Positions 5,651 through 51,622 of a DNA stretch of 64,000 bases are shown piece by piece. Source of the DNA: Octopus vulgaris (lineage: Eukaryota); assembly GCA_951406725.2 (NCBI GenBank), contig OX597840.1:2046001-2110000 (forward strand), written 5' to 3'. The notes beneath the pieces were generated by a model. It did no database searches. It saw only the letters and a list, made by a program, of their open reading frames with translations, and was not told the origin of the DNA. Positions within the stretch are counted from its first letter, which is position 1. The number at the start of each line of letters is the position of its first letter. The position numbers and the translations under genes are program-made.

Positions 5651-5802
5651 ACCCTTAAAAAAAAAAACGGAGACTAAATTAACCTGTTCAGGACTTGAAC
5701 TCAGAGCATAAGGAAAAAAATAAATAAAAACTCTGCTACGCACATTGACCAATGCGCTGACGATTGCTGCAACTTCAACCCCTAGATAATATTTTCAATG
5801 GA

Positions 5803-5843
5803 CACGTGATCTTAGACAGTTTATTATGATGACGTCATAATAA
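5803..5843. promoter_or_regulatory. E-box (CACGTG) and CRE (TGACGTCA) upstream of the orphan gene
   Basis: CACGTG at 5803-5808. TGACGTCA at 5830-5837 within the near-palindrome TTATTATGATGACGTCATAATAA, about 140 bp upstream of the ATG. Confidence 0.35.
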
Positions 5844-5975
5844 CAAATTGAGATAAACAAAAAAAATCCATTGCGATTTTGCAGCTTCTTTGACGATAGC
5901 TTCTTGTGGGTAACTCTTGCAATTTATCCCTTTGCGTTAATAAATTTACTAATTATTAATTTTGTTTCTTCAAAA

Positions 5976-6174
5976 ATGACAGCTAACGTTACCAACCATG
6001 GTTTCCTCGCACGTCTGCATGCAAGAGCCAAGCGAATTCTTGAAGCTATAGGCCCTTGTTTCAAGAAACCTGAAACAGATGAAGATGCACCTGAAAATGA
6101 CATAGAGGTTTCCTCGATGACATCAACATCAGAGGGATCCAATCTGAATCAATCCGCTGCCAAAGATAGAGAAG
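5976..6174 (+). CDS. orphan gene coding exon 1 (MTANVTNHGFLARLHARAKRILEAIGPCFKKPETDEDAPEND...AKDRE)
   Basis: AAAAATG start context, non-repetitive ORF, strong donor AAG|GTGAGT, phase 1. A paralogous copy starts at 30059. Confidence 0.7.
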
Positions 6175-7307: not shown

Positions 7308-7617
7308 TTATAAATATATATTTGCACATATATATACATATATAAATATAAAAATATTCTATTATTACTATTGATATACACACATATATATATAGTATAT
7401 ATATTCTCGAATGCATCTATGCATGAATGCTTATATATTTATAATTATATATACTCTATATGTGTTTGTGTGTATAAATTGTTAGACATATACATGTGCT
7501 TGTATGTATGTTTATGTGTATGTATCTATGTATGTATGTACGTATGTAAGTATTTATGTATGTACATATGTACGTATGTATGTATACCTATTATATTTGT
7601 TATTTTCTCTTCAACAG

Positions 7618-7665
7618 ATACAAATTCCGAGCATTCAGAATTATCTGATGAAACACATATAAGAT
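7618..7665 (+). CDS. orphan gene exon 2 (48 nt, DTNSEHSELSDETHIR)
   Basis: TTTTCTCTTCAACAG acceptor, GTAAGA donor, phase 1-1. Paralogous copy near 25245. Confidence 0.7.
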
Positions 7666-7849
7666 GTAAGATATATCGACTAGCCTTTATAAATTTTCTT
7701 TATCAGTGTCATTTATTGGGGTCTGATATCTGCAGTATACCCGTATTACACACACACACACACACACATACAGACACATACACACAAACGCTCACAAACA
7801 TACAAATACGCACATACACACACGAACACTGACACTCATATATATATAT

Positions 7850-12878: not shown

Positions 12879-13868
12879 GTAAATCTAATAATATTTGTCA
12901 TTTATTATCAGCAGATTATGATATCAGCAATAGATATCAGACGCCATTTAAGAGTATATTTTTGCCTGAACATGATGTATAATATACTGATGACTTATCG
13001 TAATTTTCATAAAATTAGTAATTTAATAAACTATAATGTAATAATAAATCTCTGAACGAGGTATAAACAGTAACTGCACGATAGTGTGAGGTATATTTGC
13101 CATCTCAATATGGGTAACCACTAAGGGTGGGTGTTAGTGTCAATAGCCAGCTGAAGACGATGTTCTCCTGGGGTTACAAGCTACAGTAACACCCACCCTT
13201 AGTGGTTAGCTATATTGAGATGGCAAATATACCTCACATTGTCGTGCAGTTACTGTTTATACCTCGTTCAGAGATTTATTATTGCTTGCATAGAGTTTTT
13301 CGAGATCAGTGACGAAAAGTTACTGGAAAAATGAGATAAGTATTTGCATTGGGACCCCTTTCATCGAAAACATGCGATGTTTTCACTGCACGGTTGCAGT
13401 AGTAAAAACATGCATGTGGCGTACAAGAAAGGAAGGAGTCGCAATAGGATCCTTTGTCTCAGGCCCCGGCTTGCTCACTTACTTCAGATATCATCTGAAG
13501 AGCAAAATGGGGCTGGAAAAGAAGACCTTACCACGAGGTGTGTATGAAAAAAGATGGAAGGAAGTGGCGAAAAAGGTGGGTGTCAGAAACCCAGCTTAAC
13601 TATGGATGGAGAAGAGGAAAGGAAAGCTGCGGGTCCTTATAGGTTGCCGGGGTTTAAAATATATCGGTAAGATTTCAATCTAATATAATGTTATATTAGT
13701 CAATACAAAGGACAATTTGAATACAGTTTTTTGTATAATGAAAAATCCATATATTGTGGAATTTTTTAAACGAACCACTTAACTGTTTTTGTATGCATGT
13801 CCTGTATTGTTCTTCTATGTAATGATTTTATAATCGTAATAAAGAATTAATCGAAAACCTGCGATTGT

Positions 13869-13913
13869 CGTACGCTGGTGACAAGTCAATACCTAGAAAC
13901 TGCAGTCCGTGCG
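13869..13913 (+). ncRNA. minimal hammerhead-like motif (tandem copy 1)
   Basis: CGTACG-CTGGTGA-C-AAGT(CAAT)ACCT-A-GAAA-CTGCAG-TC-CGTGCG. Stem I has 6 bp, stem III is the palindrome ACTGCAGT, triplet GUC. Confidence 0.65.
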
Positions 13914-14222
13914 TATCACTTAGGTTGACGAGGGAAGGATGACCTCCATTTGCAAATACCGATAGGGCACAGAAAGTGTGTCAATAGCCATCTGGAGACG
14001 ATGTTCTCCTGGGGTTACAAGCTACAGTAACACCTACCCTTAGTGGTTAGCCATATTGAGATGGCAAATATACCTCACACTGTTGTGCAGTTACTGTTTA
14101 TACTTCGTACAGAGATTTATTATTGCTTACATACAGTTTTTCGAGATCAGTGACGAAAAGTTACTGGAAAAATGAGATAAGTATTTGCATTGGGACCCCT
14201 TTCATCTAAAACCTGCGATTGT

Positions 14223-14267
14223 CGTACGCTGTGGACAGGTCAATAACTAGAAACTGCAGTCCGTGCG
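14223..14267 (+). ncRNA. minimal hammerhead-like motif (tandem copy 2)
   Basis: Same motif 354 nt downstream, with core CTGTGGA. Confidence 0.6.
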
Positions 14268-14545
14268 TATCACTTAGGTTGACGGTGGAAGGATGACCTC
14301 CATTTGCAAATACCGATAGGGCACAGAAATTGTGTCAATAGCCATCTGGAGACGATGTTCTCCTGGGGCTACAAGCTACAGTAACACCCACCGTATTGGT
14401 TAGCCATATTGAGATGGCAAATATACCTCAAACTGTAATGTATAAATGCTTGTCCGTACTTAATTTTTCCATGTTTGATTTCTGCCTGTTTCTCTTGTTT
14501 ACGTCAAATTATATTCATTGAGTTTTGTTTTCCGTCCATTTCCAG

Positions 14546-15431: not shown

Positions 15432-15490
15432 ACATTGAAGGCACTGCTCAAATTGAGATTTGAATAAAGGAAGATATATGCCATAACTCA
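15432..15490 (+). other. probable non-coding terminal (3'UTR) exon with AATAAA
   Basis: TTTGTTTTTCAG acceptor, AATAAA at 15463-15468. Confidence 0.5.
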
Positions 15491-15873
15491 ATGTAAAAGA
15501 CCCAGATATCTATACAACATCCGAAAGATTCCTAGAATGCACCGGCTCTACATCATATCGAGCCCTCGCCGTGTTACTCCGCGTTGTGTGACATATAAAT
15601 AGAACTCAACACCTATTTTTTGAGCTTAAAATGACATTTTTCGTAAATGCAAATTATGGTGCCTTAAACTAACTTTGAGAATAAATATCTGCTGTTTCAA
15701 TATTTGCAATAACTTGTATTATGAATAAAGAATTAAATCTATTTTTGCTTGAACTTCATTAATCTAGCTATAATATAAACTTTGGTAAAGGTACATGAGG
15801 GAAAATATAAAGAGTGTCTTCATCGTTTTAAGTGTAATGACGAAATAACCTCGGGGATTAGTATGTGTATAAA

Positions 15874-16250
15874 GCACTCCGTCGGTTACGACGACGAGGG
15901 TTCCGGTTGATCCGATCAACGGAACAGCCTGCTCGTGAAATTAACGTGTAAGTGGCTGAGCACTCCACAGACACGTGTACCCTTAACGTAGTTCTCGGGG
16001 ATATTCAGTGTGACACAGAGAGTGACATGGCCGGGCTTTTGAAATACAGGTACAACAGAAACAGGAAGTAAGAGTGAGAGAAAGTTGTGGTGAAAGAGTA
16101 CAGCAGGGATCACCACCATCCCCTGCCGGAGCCTCGTGGAGCTTTAGGTTTTTTCGCTCAATAAACACTCACAACGCCCGGTCTGGGAATCGAAACCGCG
16201 ATCCTACGACCGCGAGTCCGCTGTCTTAACCACTGGGTCATTGCGCCTCC
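15874..16250 (-). mobile_element. full-length SINE family 1
   Basis: Near-identical to 2533-2910. TTAGTATGT occurs on both flanks. Confidence 0.9.
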
Positions 16251-16367
16251 GGTTTAGTATGTATGGTGTACTTACGAAGCACATTAAAGTAAAGTTTCGC
16301 CAATGTGATTAAAGTTAAATAAATATTTATATATTAAATTTGTTACTGTTTGAAGAACAATGGTCGA

Positions 16368-19300
16368 GGCGCGTGTCTTAGTGGTTAGGGTGTCAGCATC
16401 ATGATCGTAAGATTGTGGTTTCAATTCCTGGACCGGGCTACGCGTTGTGTTCTGGAACAAAACACTTCATTTACCGTTGCTCCTGGCTAGGCTTTAAAAA
16501 GGGTTAGGTTTATTTCTGGAGGTGCGTGGTTTAGTGGTTAAGGTGTCAGTACCATGATCGGAAGATTGTGGTTTCGATTCCTGGACCAGGCTACGCGTCG
16601 TGTTCTTGAGCAAAACACATCATTTACCGTTGCTCCTGGCTAGGCTTTAAAAAGGGTTAGGTCTATTTCTGAAGGTGCGTGGCTTAGTGGTTAAGGTGTC
16701 AGCATCATGATCGGAAGATTGTGGTTTCGATTCCTGGACCGGGCTACGCGTTGTGTTCTTGCGCAAAACACTTCATTTACCGATGCTCCTGGCTAGGCTT
16801 TAAAAAGGGTTAGGTTTATTTCTGGAGGTGTGTGGTTTAGTGGTTAGGGTGTCAGTACCATGATCGGAAGATCGTGGTTTCGATTCCTGGAACGGACTAC
16901 GCGTTGTGTTCTTGAGCAAAACACTTCATTTACCGATGCTCCTGGCTAGGCTTTAAAAAGGGTTAGGTTTATTTCTGGAGGTGCGTGGTTTAGTGGTTAG
17001 GGTGTCAGTACCATGATCGTAAGATTGTGGTTTCGATTCCTGGAGCGGGCTACGCGTTGTGTTCTGGAGCAAAACACTTCATTTACCGTTGCTCCTGGCT
17101 AGGCTTTAAAAAGGGTTAGGTTTATTTCTGGATGTGCGTGGTTTAGTAGTTAGGGTGTCAGTACCATGATCGTAAGATTGTGGTTTCGAATCCTGGACCG
17201 GGCTACGCGTTGTGTTCTGGAGCAAAACACTTCATTTACCGTTGCTCATGGCTAGGCTTTAAAAAGGGTTAGGTTTATTTCTGGATGTGCGTGGTTTAGT
17301 GGTTAGGGTGTCAGTACCATGATCGGAAGATTGTGGCTTCGATTCCTGGACCGGGCTACGCGTTGTGTTCTTGAGCAAAACACTGCATTTAACGTTGCTC
17401 CTGGCTAGGCTTTAAAAAGGGTTAGGTTTATTTCTGGAGGTGCGTGGTTTAGTGGTTAAGGTGTCAGTACCATGATCGGAAGATTGTGGTTTCGATTCCT
17501 GGACCGGGCTACGCGTTGTGTTCTTGAGCAAAACACTGCATTTAACGTTGCTCCTGGCTAGGCTTTAAAAAGGGTTAGGTTTATTTCTGGAGGTGTGTGG
17601 TTTAGTGGTTAAGGTGTCAGTACCATGATCGGAAGATCGTGGTTTCGATTCCTGGAACAGACTACGCGTTGTGTTCTTGAGCAAAACACTTCATTTAACT
17701 ATGCTCCTGGCTAGGCTTTAAAAAGGGTTAGGTTTATTTCTGGAGGTGCGTGGTTTAGTGGTTAGGGTGTCAGTACCATGATCGTAAGATTGTGGTTTCG
17801 ATTCCTGGACCGGGCTACGCGTTGTGTTCTGGAGCAAAACACTTCATTTACCGTTGCTCCTGGCTAGGCTTTAAAAAGGGTTAGGTTTACATCTGGAGGT
17901 GCGTGGTTTAGTGGTTAGGGTGTCAGTACCATGATCGTAAGATTGTGGTTTCGATTCCAGGACCGGGCTACGCGTTGTGTTCTGGAGCAAAACACTTCAT
18001 TTACCGTTGCTCCTGGCTAGGCTTTAAAAAGGGTTAGGTTTATTTCTGGATGTGCGTGGTTTAGTGGTTAGGGTGTCAGTACCATGATCGGAAGATTGTG
18101 GCTTCGATTCCTGGACCGGGCTACGCGTTGTGTTTTGGAGCAAAACACTTCATTTACCGTTGCTCCTGGCTAGGCTTTAAAAAGGGTTAGGTTTATTTCT
18201 GGATGTGCGTGGTTTAGTGGTTAAGGTGTCAGTACCATGATCGGAAGATTGTGGCTTCGATTCCTGGACCGGGCTACGCGTTGTGTTTTGGAGCAAAACA
18301 CTTCATTTACCGTTGCTACTGGCTATGCTTTAAAAAGGGTTAGGTTTATTTCTGGAGGTTCGTGGTTTAGTGGTTAGGGTGTCAGTACCATGATCGTAAG
18401 ATTGTGGTTTCGATTCCTGGAGCGGGCTACGCGTTGTGTTTTGGAGCAAAACACTTCATTTACCGTTGCTCCTGGCTAGGCTTTAAAAAGGGTTAGGTTT
18501 ATTTCTGGAGGTGCGTGGTTTAGTGGTTAGGGTGTCAGTACCATGATCGTAAGATTGTGGTTTCGATTCCTGGACCGGGCTACGCGTTGTGTTCTGGAGC
18601 AAAACACTTCATTTACCGTTGCTCCTGGCTAGGCTTTAAAAAGGGTTAGGTTTATTTCTGGATGTGCGTGGTTTAGTGGTTAGGGTGTCAGTACCATGAT
18701 CGGAAGATTGTGGCTTCGATTCCTGGACCGGGCTACGCGTTGTGTTCTTGAGCAAAACACTGCATTTACCGTTGCTCCTGGCTAGGCTTTAAAAAGGGTT
18801 AGGTTTATTTCTGGAGGTGCGTGGTTTAGTGGTTAAGGTGTCAGCATCATGATCGGAAGATTGTGGTTTCGATTCCTGGACCGGGCTACGCGTTGTGTTC
18901 TTGCGCAAAACACTTCATTTAACGATGCTCCTGGCTAGGCTTTAAAAAGGGTTAGGTTTATTTCTGGAGGTGTGTGGTTTAGTGGTTAAGGTGTCAGTAC
19001 CATGATCGGAAGATCGTGGTTTCGATTCCTGGAACAGACTACGCGTTGTGTTCTTGAGCAAAACACTTCATTTAACTATGCTCCTGGCTAGGCTTTAAAA
19101 AGGGTTAGGTTTATTTCTGGAGGTGCGTGGTTTAGTGGTTAGGGTGTCAGTACCATGATCGTAAGATTGTGGTTTCGATTCCTGGACCGGGCTACGCGTT
19201 ATGTTCTGGAGCAAAACACTTCATTTACCGTTGCTCCTGGCTAGGCTTTAAAAAGGGTTAGGTTTATTTCTGGAGGTGCGTGGTTTAGTGGTTAGGGTTT

Positions 19301-21392
19301 CAGTACCATGATCGTAAGATTGTGGTTTCGATTCCTGGACCGGGCTACGCGTTGTGTTCTGGAGCAAAACACTTCATTTACCGTTGCTCCTGGCTAGGCT
19401 TTAAAAAGGGTTAGGTTTATTTCTGGATGTGCGTGGTTTAGTGGTTAGGGTGTCAGTACCATGATCGGAAGATTGTGGTTTCGATTCCTGGACCGGGCTA
19501 CGCGTTGTGTTTTTGAGCAAAACACTGCATTTACCGTTGCTCCTGGCTAGGCTTTAAAAAGGGTTAGGTTTATTTCTGGAGGTGCGTGGTTTAGTGGTTA
19601 AGGTGTCAGTACCATGATCGGAAGATTGTGGTTTCGATTCCTGGACCGGGCTACGCGTTGTGTTCTTGAGCAAAACACTTCATTTACCGTTGCTCCTGGC
19701 TAGGCTTTAAAAAGGGTTAGGTTTATTTCCGGAGGTGCGTGGTTTAGTGGTTAAGGTCTCAGTACCATGATCGGAGGATTGTGGTTTCGATTCCTGGACC
19801 GGGCTACGCGTTGTGTTTTGGAGCAAAACACTTCATTTACCGTTGCTCCTGGCTAGGCTTTAAAAAGGGTTAGGTTTATTTCTGGAGGTGCGTGGTTTAG
19901 TGGTTAAGGTGTCAGTACCATGATCGGAAGATTGTGGTTTCGATTCCTGGACCGGGCTACGCGTTGTGTTCTTGAGCAAAACACTTCCTTTTCCGTTGCT
20001 CCTGGCTAGGCTTTAAAAAGGGTTAGGTTTATTTCTGGAGGTGCGTGGTTTAGTGGTTAAGGTGTCAGTACCATGATCGGAAGATTGTGGTTTCGATTCC
20101 TGGACCGGGCTACGCGTTGTGTTCTTGAGCAAAACACTTCATTTACCGTTGCTCCTGGCTAGGCTTTAAAAAGGGTTAGGTTTATTTCCGGAGGTGCGTG
20201 GTTTAGGGGTTAAGGTCTCAGTACCATGATCGGAGGATTGTGGTTTCGATTCCTGGACCGGGCTACGCGTTGTGTTCTTGAGCAAAACACTGCATTTACC
20301 GTTGCTCCTGGCTAGGCTTTAAAAAGGGTTAGGTTTATTTCTGGAGGTGCGTGGTTTAGTGGTTAAGGTGTCAGTACCATGATCGGAAGATTGTGGTTTC
20401 GATTCCTGGACCGGGCTACGCGTTGTGTTCTTGAGCAAAACACTTCATTTACCGTTGCTCCTGGCTAGGCTTTAAAAGGGTTAGGTTTATTTCCGGAGGC
20501 GCGTGGTTTAGTGGTTAAGGTGTCAGTACCATGATCGGAAGATTGTGGTTTCGATTCCTGGACCGGGCTACGCGTTGTGTTCTTGAGCAAAACACTTCAT
20601 TTACCGTTGCTCCTGGCTAGGCTTTAAAAAGGGTTAGGTTTATTTCCGGAGGTGCGTGGTTTAGTGGTTAAGGTCTCAGTACCATGATCGGAGGATTGTG
20701 GTTTCGATTCCTGGACCGGGCTACGCGTTGTGTTTTGGAGCAAAACACTTCATTTACCGTTGCTCCTGGCTAGGCTTTAAAAAGGGTTAGGTTTATTTCT
20801 GGAGGTGCGTGGTTTAGTGGTTAAGGTGTCAGTACCATGATCGGAAGATTGTGGTTTCGATTCCTGGACCGGGCTACGCGTTGTGTTCTGGAGCAAAACA
20901 CTTCATTTACCGTTGCTCCTGGCTAGGCTTTAAAAAGGGTTAGGTTTATTTCTGGATGTGCGTGGTTTAGTGGTTAGGGTGTCAGTACCATGATCGGAAG
21001 ATTGTGGCTTCGATTCCTGGACCGGGCTACGCGTCGTGTTCTTGAGCAAAACACTTCATTTGCCGTTGCTCCTGGCTAGGCTTTAAAAAGGGTTAGGTTT
21101 ATTTCTGGATGTGCGTGGTTTAGTGGTTAAGGTGTCAGTACCATGATCGGAAGATTGTGGTTTCGATTCCTGGACCGGGCTACGCGTTGTGTTCTTGAGC
21201 AAAACACTTCATTTACCGTTGCTCCTGGCTAGGCTTTAAAAAGGGTTAGGTTTATTTCTGGAAGTGCGTGGTTTAGTGGTTAAGGTGTCAGTACCATGAT
21301 CGGAAGATTGTGGTTTCGATTCCAGGACCGGGCTACGCGTTGTGTTCTTGAGCAAAACACTTCATTTCACGTTGCTACAGTCCACTTAGCTG
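16368..21392 (+). repeat. tandem satellite, 33 x 153 bp, derived from a tRNA-type SINE 5' head
   Basis: Units start at 16368, 16521, 16674 ... 21263 (one 1-bp deletion). Each carries A box TGGTTTAGTGG and B box GGTTTCGATTCC. The last unit runs into SINE body sequence (ATTTCACGTTGCTACAGTCCACTTAGCTG). Confidence 0.95.
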
Positions 21393-25145: not shown

Positions 25146-25224
25146 AGGAGGAAGGAATTATGCATACATGTGGTTACTTGTATACTTTTTTAAATCTCTA
25201 TTTATGTACGTTTACTTTAGTTGT

Positions 25225-25365
25225 GATATTTTTTCTTCCACTGATGCAGTTTCCGAGCATTCAGAATTATCTGATGAAACGTATATAAGATGTAAGATAT
25301 AAATGAATGACTTTTTCTTACTTCGAATTATTACACTTAGCTGGTTCCTTGTTCTCTGGTATCTG
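25225..25365 (+). pseudogene. degraded paralog of orphan-gene exon 2 with flanking intron
   Basis: TTCCGAGCATTCAGAATTATCTGATGAAACGTATATAAGATGTAAGAT is nearly identical to 7626-7672. The acceptor CAG has become CTG. Confidence 0.65.
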
Positions 25366-29627: not shown

Positions 29628-29869
29628 GTATGGGATTAAGCAGTTAAAGTGGTAATCTCAGTTTTTTCTAATCTTGTCATAAGGAAGACAATTTTAAAAG
29701 TAGAGAAAGATCATCAGTATACGACTTGCATTATTCTATCAAACACAAAAATACAAAATGCCAAGTTGGTCTCGGCGGGATTAGAACTCAGAAGGTTACC
29801 ATTCAGGAGATATACCGATGCCGTGGAAAATCAGCAATTTCGACGCCTTAATAATATTCTGAATAAGCA

Positions 29870-30175
29870 CATGATCGTCAACCATTTAATACGACGATGC
29901 CTACATAATAAAAAATTGAGAGAAACCAGAAAATCTTATTACAATATTCCTTTGCGATTAAGGCAGCCTATTTGACGATAACTTCTCGTAGGTTGCTCTT
30001 AGAGTTAATTCATTTGCGATCATAAATTTACTAATTATTATTTTAATTTATTGAAAAAATGACAGCTAATATAAAACAGCAGACATTCCTCGCATGTCTG
30101 CGTGCAGGAGCCAGGCAAATAACTGAAGCTATATGCCCGTGTTTAAAGAAACCAAAACCAGATGAAATGCACTTA
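29870..30175 (+). pseudogene. paralog of orphan-gene upstream region and exon 1 (ATG 30059, MTANIKQQTFLACLRAGARQITEAICPCLKKPKPDE), truncated by microsatellite
   Basis: Colinear homology to ~5800-6090, including upstream non-coding sequence. Confidence 0.7.
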
Positions 30176-51240: not shown

Positions 51241-51261
51241 GTAAAATTACGTAATTTGGAA

Positions 51262-51622
51262 GCACTCCGTCGCTTACGACGATGAGGGTTCCGTTTGATC
51301 CGATCAACGGAACAGCCTGCTCGTGAAATTAACGTGTAAGTGGCTGAGCACTCCACAGACACGTGTACCCTTATCGTAGTTCTCGGGGATATTCAGCGTG
51401 ACACAGAGAGTGACAAGGCCGGCCCTTTGAAATACAGGTACAACAGAAACAGGAAGTAAGAGTGAGAGAAAGTTGTGGTGAAAGAGTACAGCAGGGATCG
51501 CCACCATCCCCTGCCGGAGCCTTGTGGAACTTTAGGTGTTTTCGCTCAATAAACACTCACAACGAAACCGCAATCCTACGACCGCGAGTCCGCTGCCCTA
51601 ACCACTGGGCCATTGCGCCTCC
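51262..51622 (-). mobile_element. SINE family 1 with 13-bp TSD
   Basis: AAAATTACGTAAT at 51243-51255 and 51627-51639. Confidence 0.9.

What the first reader, a model, noticed from the sequence alone, without database searches (positions are those of the whole stretch)
16368..21392. 5-kb satellite of 33 amplified SINE heads, each keeping a Pol III internal promoter
Seen: the 153-bp unit is ~113 bp of tRNA-SINE head (A box TGGTTTAGTGG, B box GGTTTCGATTCC, related to the SINE at 815) plus a ~40-bp linker (CCTGGCTAGGCTTTAAAAAGGGTTAGGTTTATTTCTGGA). The last unit reverts to normal SINE body, so the array grew in situ from one SINE. Most units have no T4 run on +. T4/T5 variants occur in only a few (e.g. 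~18132, 18286, 19510, 19815, 20733). The array starts ~0.9 kb past the orphan gene's poly(A) signal. Inference: it could be a dense TFIIIC/Pol III platform (insulator or boundary) giving multimeric RNAs whose lengths depend on sporadic terminators. The unit length is near nucleosomal.
Basis: partly seen in the sequence, partly recalled or inferred. Interest (0 to 1): 0.7.

Follow-up and report, generated by a model that had tools for sequence, protein, structure and literature searches.

The report
Satellite grown from a deleted SINE
This 5-kb run of 33 repeats is made entirely of a common short jumping element that lost its middle; it likely grew by ordinary DNA duplication from two copies lying head to tail, and a twin array elsewhere in the genome grew just as long with broken promoters, so it is likely ordinary repeat DNA.

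Summary
The array is real: 33 heads, 153-bp period, 16363-21392. The 'linker' is not foreign. It is the 3' end and tail of the same ~250-bp tRNA-derived SINE (at least 4,046 copies), so each unit is a whole SINE with a 104-bp internal deletion.

This family readily forms head-to-tail multimers: 76 further junctions at 69 loci; 30 of 65 examined sit inside one target-site duplication. The array likely grew from such a dimer by unequal crossover. Both end units keep ancestral letters, and blocks of units are duplicated. The deleted form occurs nowhere else in the genome. Contigs from two other organisms carry the array's tail-to-head joint, so it is no assembly artefact.

Boxes vary as often as the rest of the unit (6 alleles vs 6.3 expected); box-breaking changes are slightly few (1 vs 3.7, P=0.10). 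A second array (C15, 33.7 x 153 bp) has 0 of 33 intact A boxes, so intact promoters are not needed for such growth. Transcription and TFIIIC binding are untested.

This is a SINE-derived satellite, a kind described in reptiles; the scan noted similar arrays on other DNA before.

The parts
16363..21392 (+). Whole array: 32 internally deleted SINE units plus one 3'-truncated, undeleted terminal copy
16363..16515 (+). Unit 1; its first ~56 columns keep six parent-SINE letters that the rest of the array has lost
16374..16384 (+). A box of unit 1 (broken here; matches the published consensus in 31 of 33 units)
   Evidence: consensus from PMC7279448
16418..16428 (+). B box of unit 1; all 33 units miss the consensus G at position 2, as the parent SINE consensus does
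16482..16483 (+). Deletion joint (2-bp CC microhomology) that removes 104 bp of the parent SINE; repeated in units 1-32
16482..16515 (+). The 'linker': SINE 3' end plus a diverged T-rich tail; its TTTAAAA begins 34 nt before the next A box
17592..19580 (+). Region with block duplication at a 9-unit lag (units 9 and 18 identical)
18133..20736 (+). Seven T4/T5 runs, six from one C>T change at unit column 85
19581..21262 (+). Units 22-32, the more uniform and likely younger part (4.3 vs 8.0 differences per pair)
21258..21392 (+). Terminal copy: array-type head, parent-type body, no deletion, no tail, no target-site duplication found

Best explanation
The array is a single-locus satellite whose 153-bp unit is a ~250-bp tRNA-derived SINE with a 104-bp internal deletion; it likely grew from a head-to-tail SINE pair by unequal crossover and is likely neutral. 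Shown: unit anatomy, parent family, the family's habit of forming head-to-tail multimers, ancestral letters at both ends, block duplications, absence of the deleted form elsewhere. Inferred steps: (1) two SINE copies came to lie head to tail, likely in one retrotransposition event; (2) the upstream copy lost 104 bp at a CC microhomology; (3) mispairing of the two heads repeatedly duplicated head + 3' end + tail; (4) crossover and conversion homogenised the inner units; (5) the last copy lost its 3' half. The boxes likely persist because the parent family is young, not because they are selected.
For: Parent consensus from 38 of 40 sampled copies; copies are 4.7% from it. The unit aligns to its head (9 differences in 116) and to its 3' end. 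94 tail-to-head junctions, 76 outside the array, against under 2.1 expected even with 100,000 heads. 65 of the 69 other loci examined: 53 dimers, 9 trimers, 2 tetramers, 1 heptamer; one enclosing duplication in 30 of 65 vs 0 of 400 swapped controls. Deletion joint 25 of 25 hits and linker 29 of 29 hits at this locus only. Lag-9 similarity P=0.001 uncorrected over 15 lags; 3 identical unit pairs. Other SINE-derived arrays of similar size lack intact boxes: C15, 33.7 x 153 bp, A box intact in 0 of 33; a 117-bp unit at several C26 loci starts after most of the A box.
Against: Box-breaking alleles are fewer than expected (1 vs 3.7; P=0.097). 31 of 32 full units pass a loose box test vs 25 of 38 dispersed copies, though the units share ancestry. 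The array's tail-to-head joint is kept almost unchanged in two other organisms. No enclosing target-site duplication was found here, so the founder dimer is inferred from relatives, not seen. The array consensus is further from the parent (9 of 116) than an average dispersed copy, which I did not explain.
Confidence: 0.8

Rival explanations
1. The array is a selected multi-promoter platform: TFIIIC binds many units, acts as a boundary, and Pol III makes read-through RNAs that end at the sporadic T-runs (predicted 84-1,767 nt).
For: A box matches the published consensus in 31 of 33 units; B box matches 10 of 11 positions in all 33. Few + strand terminators. Each unit has a TATA-like TTTAAAA 34 nt before the A box; upstream AT-rich boxes raise SINE transcription in mammalian cells (PMC7279448, passages). 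Slight deficit of box-breaking alleles.
Against: Allele counts in box columns match chance (6 vs 6.3). No unit has the G found before TTC in the B box of the genome's tRNA genes. The scarcity of T-runs is inherited: the parent consensus has none either. An equally long array grew with dead A boxes.
Confidence: 0.09
2. The whole array was written in one retrotransposition event, by rolling-circle or repeated template-jump copying of a deleted SINE RNA.
For: The family does yield multimers inside one target-site duplication. Some trimers have different junctions within one locus, which fits RNA-level joining.
Against: End units keep ancestral letters and the last copy lacks the deletion. Multi-unit blocks are duplicated and divergence is uneven along the array. 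The deleted form has no dispersed copies. No Rfam ribozyme match. The longest whole-SINE multimer among 65 loci has 7 copies.
Confidence: 0.06
3. Amplification is neutral but biased by length: ~150-bp units expand more easily because they fit a nucleosome.
For: The two longest whole-head arrays found both have a 153-bp period and about 33 units, from different founders. Periods of 152-153 recur at C10, C26, C28. PMC10702118 (Discussion) cites 150-180 bp as a common satellite range.
Against: Long SINE-derived arrays also have periods of 117, 123, 134, 144, 240 and 249 bp. My pattern searches covered only chosen period windows. 153 follows from the deletion length.
Confidence: 0.12
4. The array is an assembly artefact.
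For: None found.
Against: Units differ by 7.1 letters per pair with structured shared variants. Short-read contigs from two other organisms hold the array's tail-to-head joint.
Confidence: 0.02

Closest known systems
SINE-derived satellites (sSat1-3) of squamate reptiles, PMC10702118 (part 1 of 5, passages and Discussion read)
   Same: Head-to-tail units shorter than the parent SINE, an extended terminal unit, homogenised inner units, few to hundreds of copies; unequal recombination proposed as the start.
   Different: Here the unit joins both ends of the SINE around an internal deletion, keeps both boxes, and traces to a tail-to-head junction; the host is an invertebrate (likely an octopus; inferred, not from a named record).
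TSD-(SINE)n-TSD multimers of bivalves, PMC11481361 (passages and section 15 read)
   Same: Direct SINE multimers inside one target-site duplication, up to 4-15 units, about 3% of copies in one clam.
   Different: Those have truncated heads in the inner copies; here the junctions fall at the first base of a full head, and the array reaches 33 units.
Head-to-tail multimers of B2, Dip and Ves SINEs, PMC8466645 (passages read)
   Same: Frequent dimers, up to 8 units; origin left open between insertion into a tail and copying of a dimeric RNA.
   Different: Mammalian poly(A)-tailed SINEs; no long homogenised array described in the passages read.
PcH-sat of the limpet, PMC11121367 (abstract read)
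   Same: Mollusc satellite derived from part of a SINE; 179-bp unit.
   Different: Abundant pericentromeric satellite from a Nin domain, not a single-locus array of promoter heads.
tRNA-like Pol III tandem repeats of amphibians (PolIII/TAN, OAX, Rana/polIII), as summarised in PMC10702118
   Same: Tandem units with a tRNA-like promoter; PolIII/TAN is transcribed in vitro.
   Different: No parent SINE is established for those; here the parent is identified and transcription is untested.

Membership tests
SINE-derived satellite (sSat) | Tandem unit derived from a dispersed SINE family of the same genome | tested here: met
SINE-derived satellite (sSat) | Unit shorter than the parent SINE; at least four middle monomers | tested here: met
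   153 bp vs 247 bp plus tail; 31 middle units
SINE-derived satellite (sSat) | Extended terminal unit that continues into the SINE | tested here: met
   Last unit runs into undeleted body to 21392
SINE-derived satellite (sSat) | Homogenised inner units | tested here: met
   Units 4.6% apart vs 8.6% between dispersed copies; shared array-wide changes
SINE-derived satellite (sSat) | Subtelomeric preference | tested here: inconclusive
   2.06 Mb from the start of a 40.2-Mb contig; the C15 twin lies at 59.2 of 78.3 Mb
tRNA-derived SINE (parent) | tRNA-related head with A and B boxes | tested here: met
   45 of 70 identical, ungapped, to a tRNA-Lys gene of this genome, z 7.8 vs shuffles; tRNA-Arg scores nearly as well; only 30 tRNA loci of a few types were compared
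tRNA-derived SINE (parent) | Dispersed copies with simple-repeat tail and target-site duplications | tested here: met
   4,046 exact 3' ends; duplications in 20 of 40 sampled; T-rich tails
CORE-SINE superfamily / octopus OR1, OR2, OK | Shared CORE domain; identity with a named family | not tested
   PMC4758252 (passages) lists OR2 of Octopus as a CORE SINE; resemblance is recalled, no reference sequence was compared
TSD-(SINE)n-TSD multimer | One target-site duplication enclosing all copies | tested here: not met
   None within 2 kb downstream of this array, whose 3' end is lost; met for 30 of 65 sister loci
TFIIIC/Pol III platform (tDNA or SINE insulator, extra-TFIIIC site) | Consensus A and B boxes | tested here: inconclusive
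   A 31 of 33; B 0 of 33 strict, 33 of 33 if position 2 is ignored
TFIIIC/Pol III platform (tDNA or SINE insulator, extra-TFIIIC site) | Selective constraint on the boxes | tested here: inconclusive
   6 alleles vs 6.3 expected; 1 breaking vs 3.7 expected, P=0.097
TFIIIC/Pol III platform (tDNA or SINE insulator, extra-TFIIIC site) | Factor occupancy, transcripts or boundary activity | not testable with these tools
   No chromatin data; only assembled contigs of guessed-RNA runs were on offer
Non-LTR retrozyme | Hammerhead ribozyme in each unit | tested here: not met
   No Rfam match at gathering threshold in the window; none for a ribozyme at E up to 10 in 15800-17000

The most novel reading that the evidence does not exclude
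Head-to-tail joining puts the SINE's own TTTAAAA in a TATA-like position ahead of the next head. That turns this array into 31 stacked, terminator-poor Pol III promoters, kept in at least three organisms as a TFIIIC-dense boundary or a source of laddered RNAs. The C15 array, the same size but promoter-dead, is a natural negative control.
Probability: 0.09. Interest if true: 0.6.

Novelty: new member of a known kind. Interest (0 to 1): 0.2.

Why it matters
As a single locus it is ordinary. Its modest value is that the path from dispersed SINE to dimer to short multimer to satellite can be read in one genome, and that two 33 x 153-bp arrays, one with intact and one with dead promoter boxes, form a ready pair for testing whether Pol III promoters matter in SINE satellites. 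My six literature searches (held library only, supplements not read) listed no description of such arrays in cephalopods.

Tried and rejected
Expression: no RNA holder listed. The unique right flank had no cover in any of four DNA runs; a filter can cause this.
Foreign origin of the linker: rejected.
Array as a source of new SINE copies: no dispersed copy of the deletion joint by exact 16-mer.
Displaced 3' half or target-site duplication of the last copy: not found.
ARAGORN and Rfam: no tRNA or other family. A weak MIR7723 hit (28.7 bits vs cut-off 200) comes from two oppositely oriented SINE heads.
How the dimers form: first and last copies are equally far from consensus (4.8 vs 4.6%, p=0.32, n=53). 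Apparent 5' truncations were often internal deletions. Template jumping, dimeric masters and insertion at a head's 5' end could not be told apart.
Contig depths over the linker (598 in organism B, 207 in C) exceed the other listed pieces but are not copy numbers.
Look-ups of earlier findings near this place and by sequence returned nothing.

Full report
Observation. The array is real. TRF reports 32.8 copies of 153 bp with 95% matches. Anchoring on the A box gives 33 heads, with 31 spacings of 153 and one of 152. Units differ by 7.1 letters per pair. Seven T-runs of four or more lie on the + strand, six from one C>T change; the - strand has 65 such runs. ARAGORN and Rfam find nothing. The window lies at C27:2,046,001-2,110,000 of a 2.8-Gb genome. 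That the host is an octopus is my inference and the wording of earlier scan notes; no call named it.

What the unit is. A genome search with two units hit the linker upstream of SINE heads at other loci (40 of 2,358 candidates scored). Reading eight of those loci showed that the linker begins with the 3' end of a ~250-bp SINE with the same head. That 3' end occurs 4,046 times as an exact 21-mer, and the head start 3,622 times as a 20-mer with two degenerate positions. I fetched 40 of the first 100 listed 3' ends; 38 were full length and gave a 247-bp consensus, with copies 4.7% from it. The array unit matches its head at 107 of 116 letters, skips 104 bp at a CC microhomology, then gives the 3' end, a diverged T-rich tail and the next head. 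The head aligns without gaps to a tRNA-Lys gene of this genome (45 of 70 identical, z 7.8), with tRNA-Arg close behind; only 30 tRNA loci were compared, so the source tRNA is open. The SINE at 815 shares only a short central block.

Why it lies head to tail. A tail-to-head pattern matched 94 times: 18 in the array and 76 at 69 other loci. Chance gives 0.07 to 2 for 3,622 to 100,000 heads. I examined 65 of the 69 loci (four not fetched): 53 dimers, 9 trimers, 2 tetramers and one heptamer by an automatic count, in which a few 'copies' are deleted copies or heads of another family. One target-site duplication encloses the whole multimer in 30 of 65, against 0 of 400 swapped controls and 20 of 40 in the sampled panel. 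Junctions are 1-18 letters, mostly tail. In 53 loci with enough overlap, first and last copies are 7.5% apart (unrelated copies 8.7%), and 17 of 53 share two or more rare variants (control 2%). So most pairs are two different copies, and about a third were homogenised or copied from one template. How the pairs form is not settled here.

How this array grew. Unit 1 keeps six parent letters in its first 56 columns. The last copy has an array-type head but parent-type body with no deletion, and ends at 21392. Units 9/18, 22/25 and 23/29 are identical; similarity peaks at a lag of 9 (P=0.001, uncorrected over 15 lags); units 22-32 are more uniform than 1-21. This is the pattern expected, from established knowledge of satellite turnover, when unequal crossover expands the interval between two homologous heads. 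The deletion joint (25 of 25 hits) and the linker (29 of 29) occur only here. No enclosing duplication or displaced 3' half was found, so the founder pair is inferred.

Reality and age. Of four DNA runs laid, contigs from organisms B and C match 89 and 82 letters with one difference across the array-specific tail and into the next head. Only 26 letters lie left of the deletion joint, under the tool's 31-letter rule, so that joint is not formally bridged. Summed depth over the linker was also present in the run of organism A. The array therefore likely predates the split of these organisms and is not an assembly artefact. Exact copy number is unverified.

Promoter claim. Against the consensus in PMC7279448, the A box fits in 31 of 33 units. 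The B box misses position 2 in all 33, as the parent consensus does, while the genome's tRNA genes have G there. Box columns carry 6 variant alleles against 6.3 expected; per-site variation is 0.016 in boxes and 0.0096 in the linker. This is inconclusive, not supportive.

Controls in the same genome. Triple-box patterns found 18 other loci at periods of 137-167 and 18 at 237-267 (these require intact B boxes). Patterns anchored outside the boxes found more. The best control is C15:59.18 Mb: 33.7 x 153 bp, 97% matches, A box intact in 0 of 33 scored units, B in 13, both in none. C2:31.92 Mb has 17 x 123 bp with both boxes in 10 of 17. Several C26 loci carry a 117-bp unit that starts after most of the A box, with dozens of units at 21.08 Mb. 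Long SINE arrays therefore arise repeatedly here, with or without promoters.

The neighbouring gene. AATAAA at 15463 is one of 13 in the preceding 4.4 kb. A candidate exon at 5976-6173 has one 60% match on C8 and a 73% DNA look-alike at 29834-30172. No gene model was tested, so the distance from a poly(A) signal carries no weight.

Comparison. It meets the tested features of the SINE-derived satellites of PMC10702118; the subtelomeric preference is inconclusive. Multimers inside one duplication are described in bivalves (PMC11481361), and frequent head-to-tail multimers in mammals (PMC8466645). CORE-SINE or OR1/OR2/OK membership was not tested. Earlier scan notes report like arrays on other DNA and two other routes to SINE chains in this genome; they are leads only.

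Verdict. New member of a known kind; best explanation 0.8; interest 0.2. The functional-platform reading stays possible at about 0.09.

Noticed in passing
G000:C15:59,177,659-59,182,805 (L166:460-5606, - strand): Independent 33.7 x 153-bp SINE-head array with the A box broken in all 33 scored units; same period and size as the focal array.
   Followed up: yes
G000:C26, at least nine loci between 3.5 and 21.1 Mb: Multi-locus 117-bp satellite from a SINE head lacking most of the A box; dozens of units at 21.08 Mb.
   Followed up: no
G000:C29 at 3.56, 5.35, 5.59 and 13.71 Mb; C3:63.47 Mb; C10:18.43 Mb: Further SINE-derived arrays: a 144-bp unit shared by four C29 loci, a 134-bp unit on C3, a 153-bp unit on C10.
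   Followed up: no
L109, L116, L118, L122, L126: 5 of 40 sampled copies are followed directly by the head of a second SINE family, so mixed head-to-tail pairs look very common.
   Followed up: partly
window 15872-16252 (-): A copy of the second SINE family lies head to head with the array, about 110 bp upstream; near copies at 2532-2910 and 51260-51622.
   Followed up: partly
window 5769-6090 / 29834-30172 and 7575-7675 / 25203-25301: Exon-like stretches have 73% and 83% look-alikes on the far side of the array, in the opposite order; possibly a diverged gene copy.
   Followed up: partly
window 13040-14436: A ~240-bp palindrome (13040-13283) and 91-95% direct duplicates of its arm at 13978-14436; looks like a decayed DNA-transposon-type repeat.
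   Followed up: no
L037, L055: Other dimers whose upstream copy has its own internal deletion, a parallel to the focal unit.
   Followed up: partly
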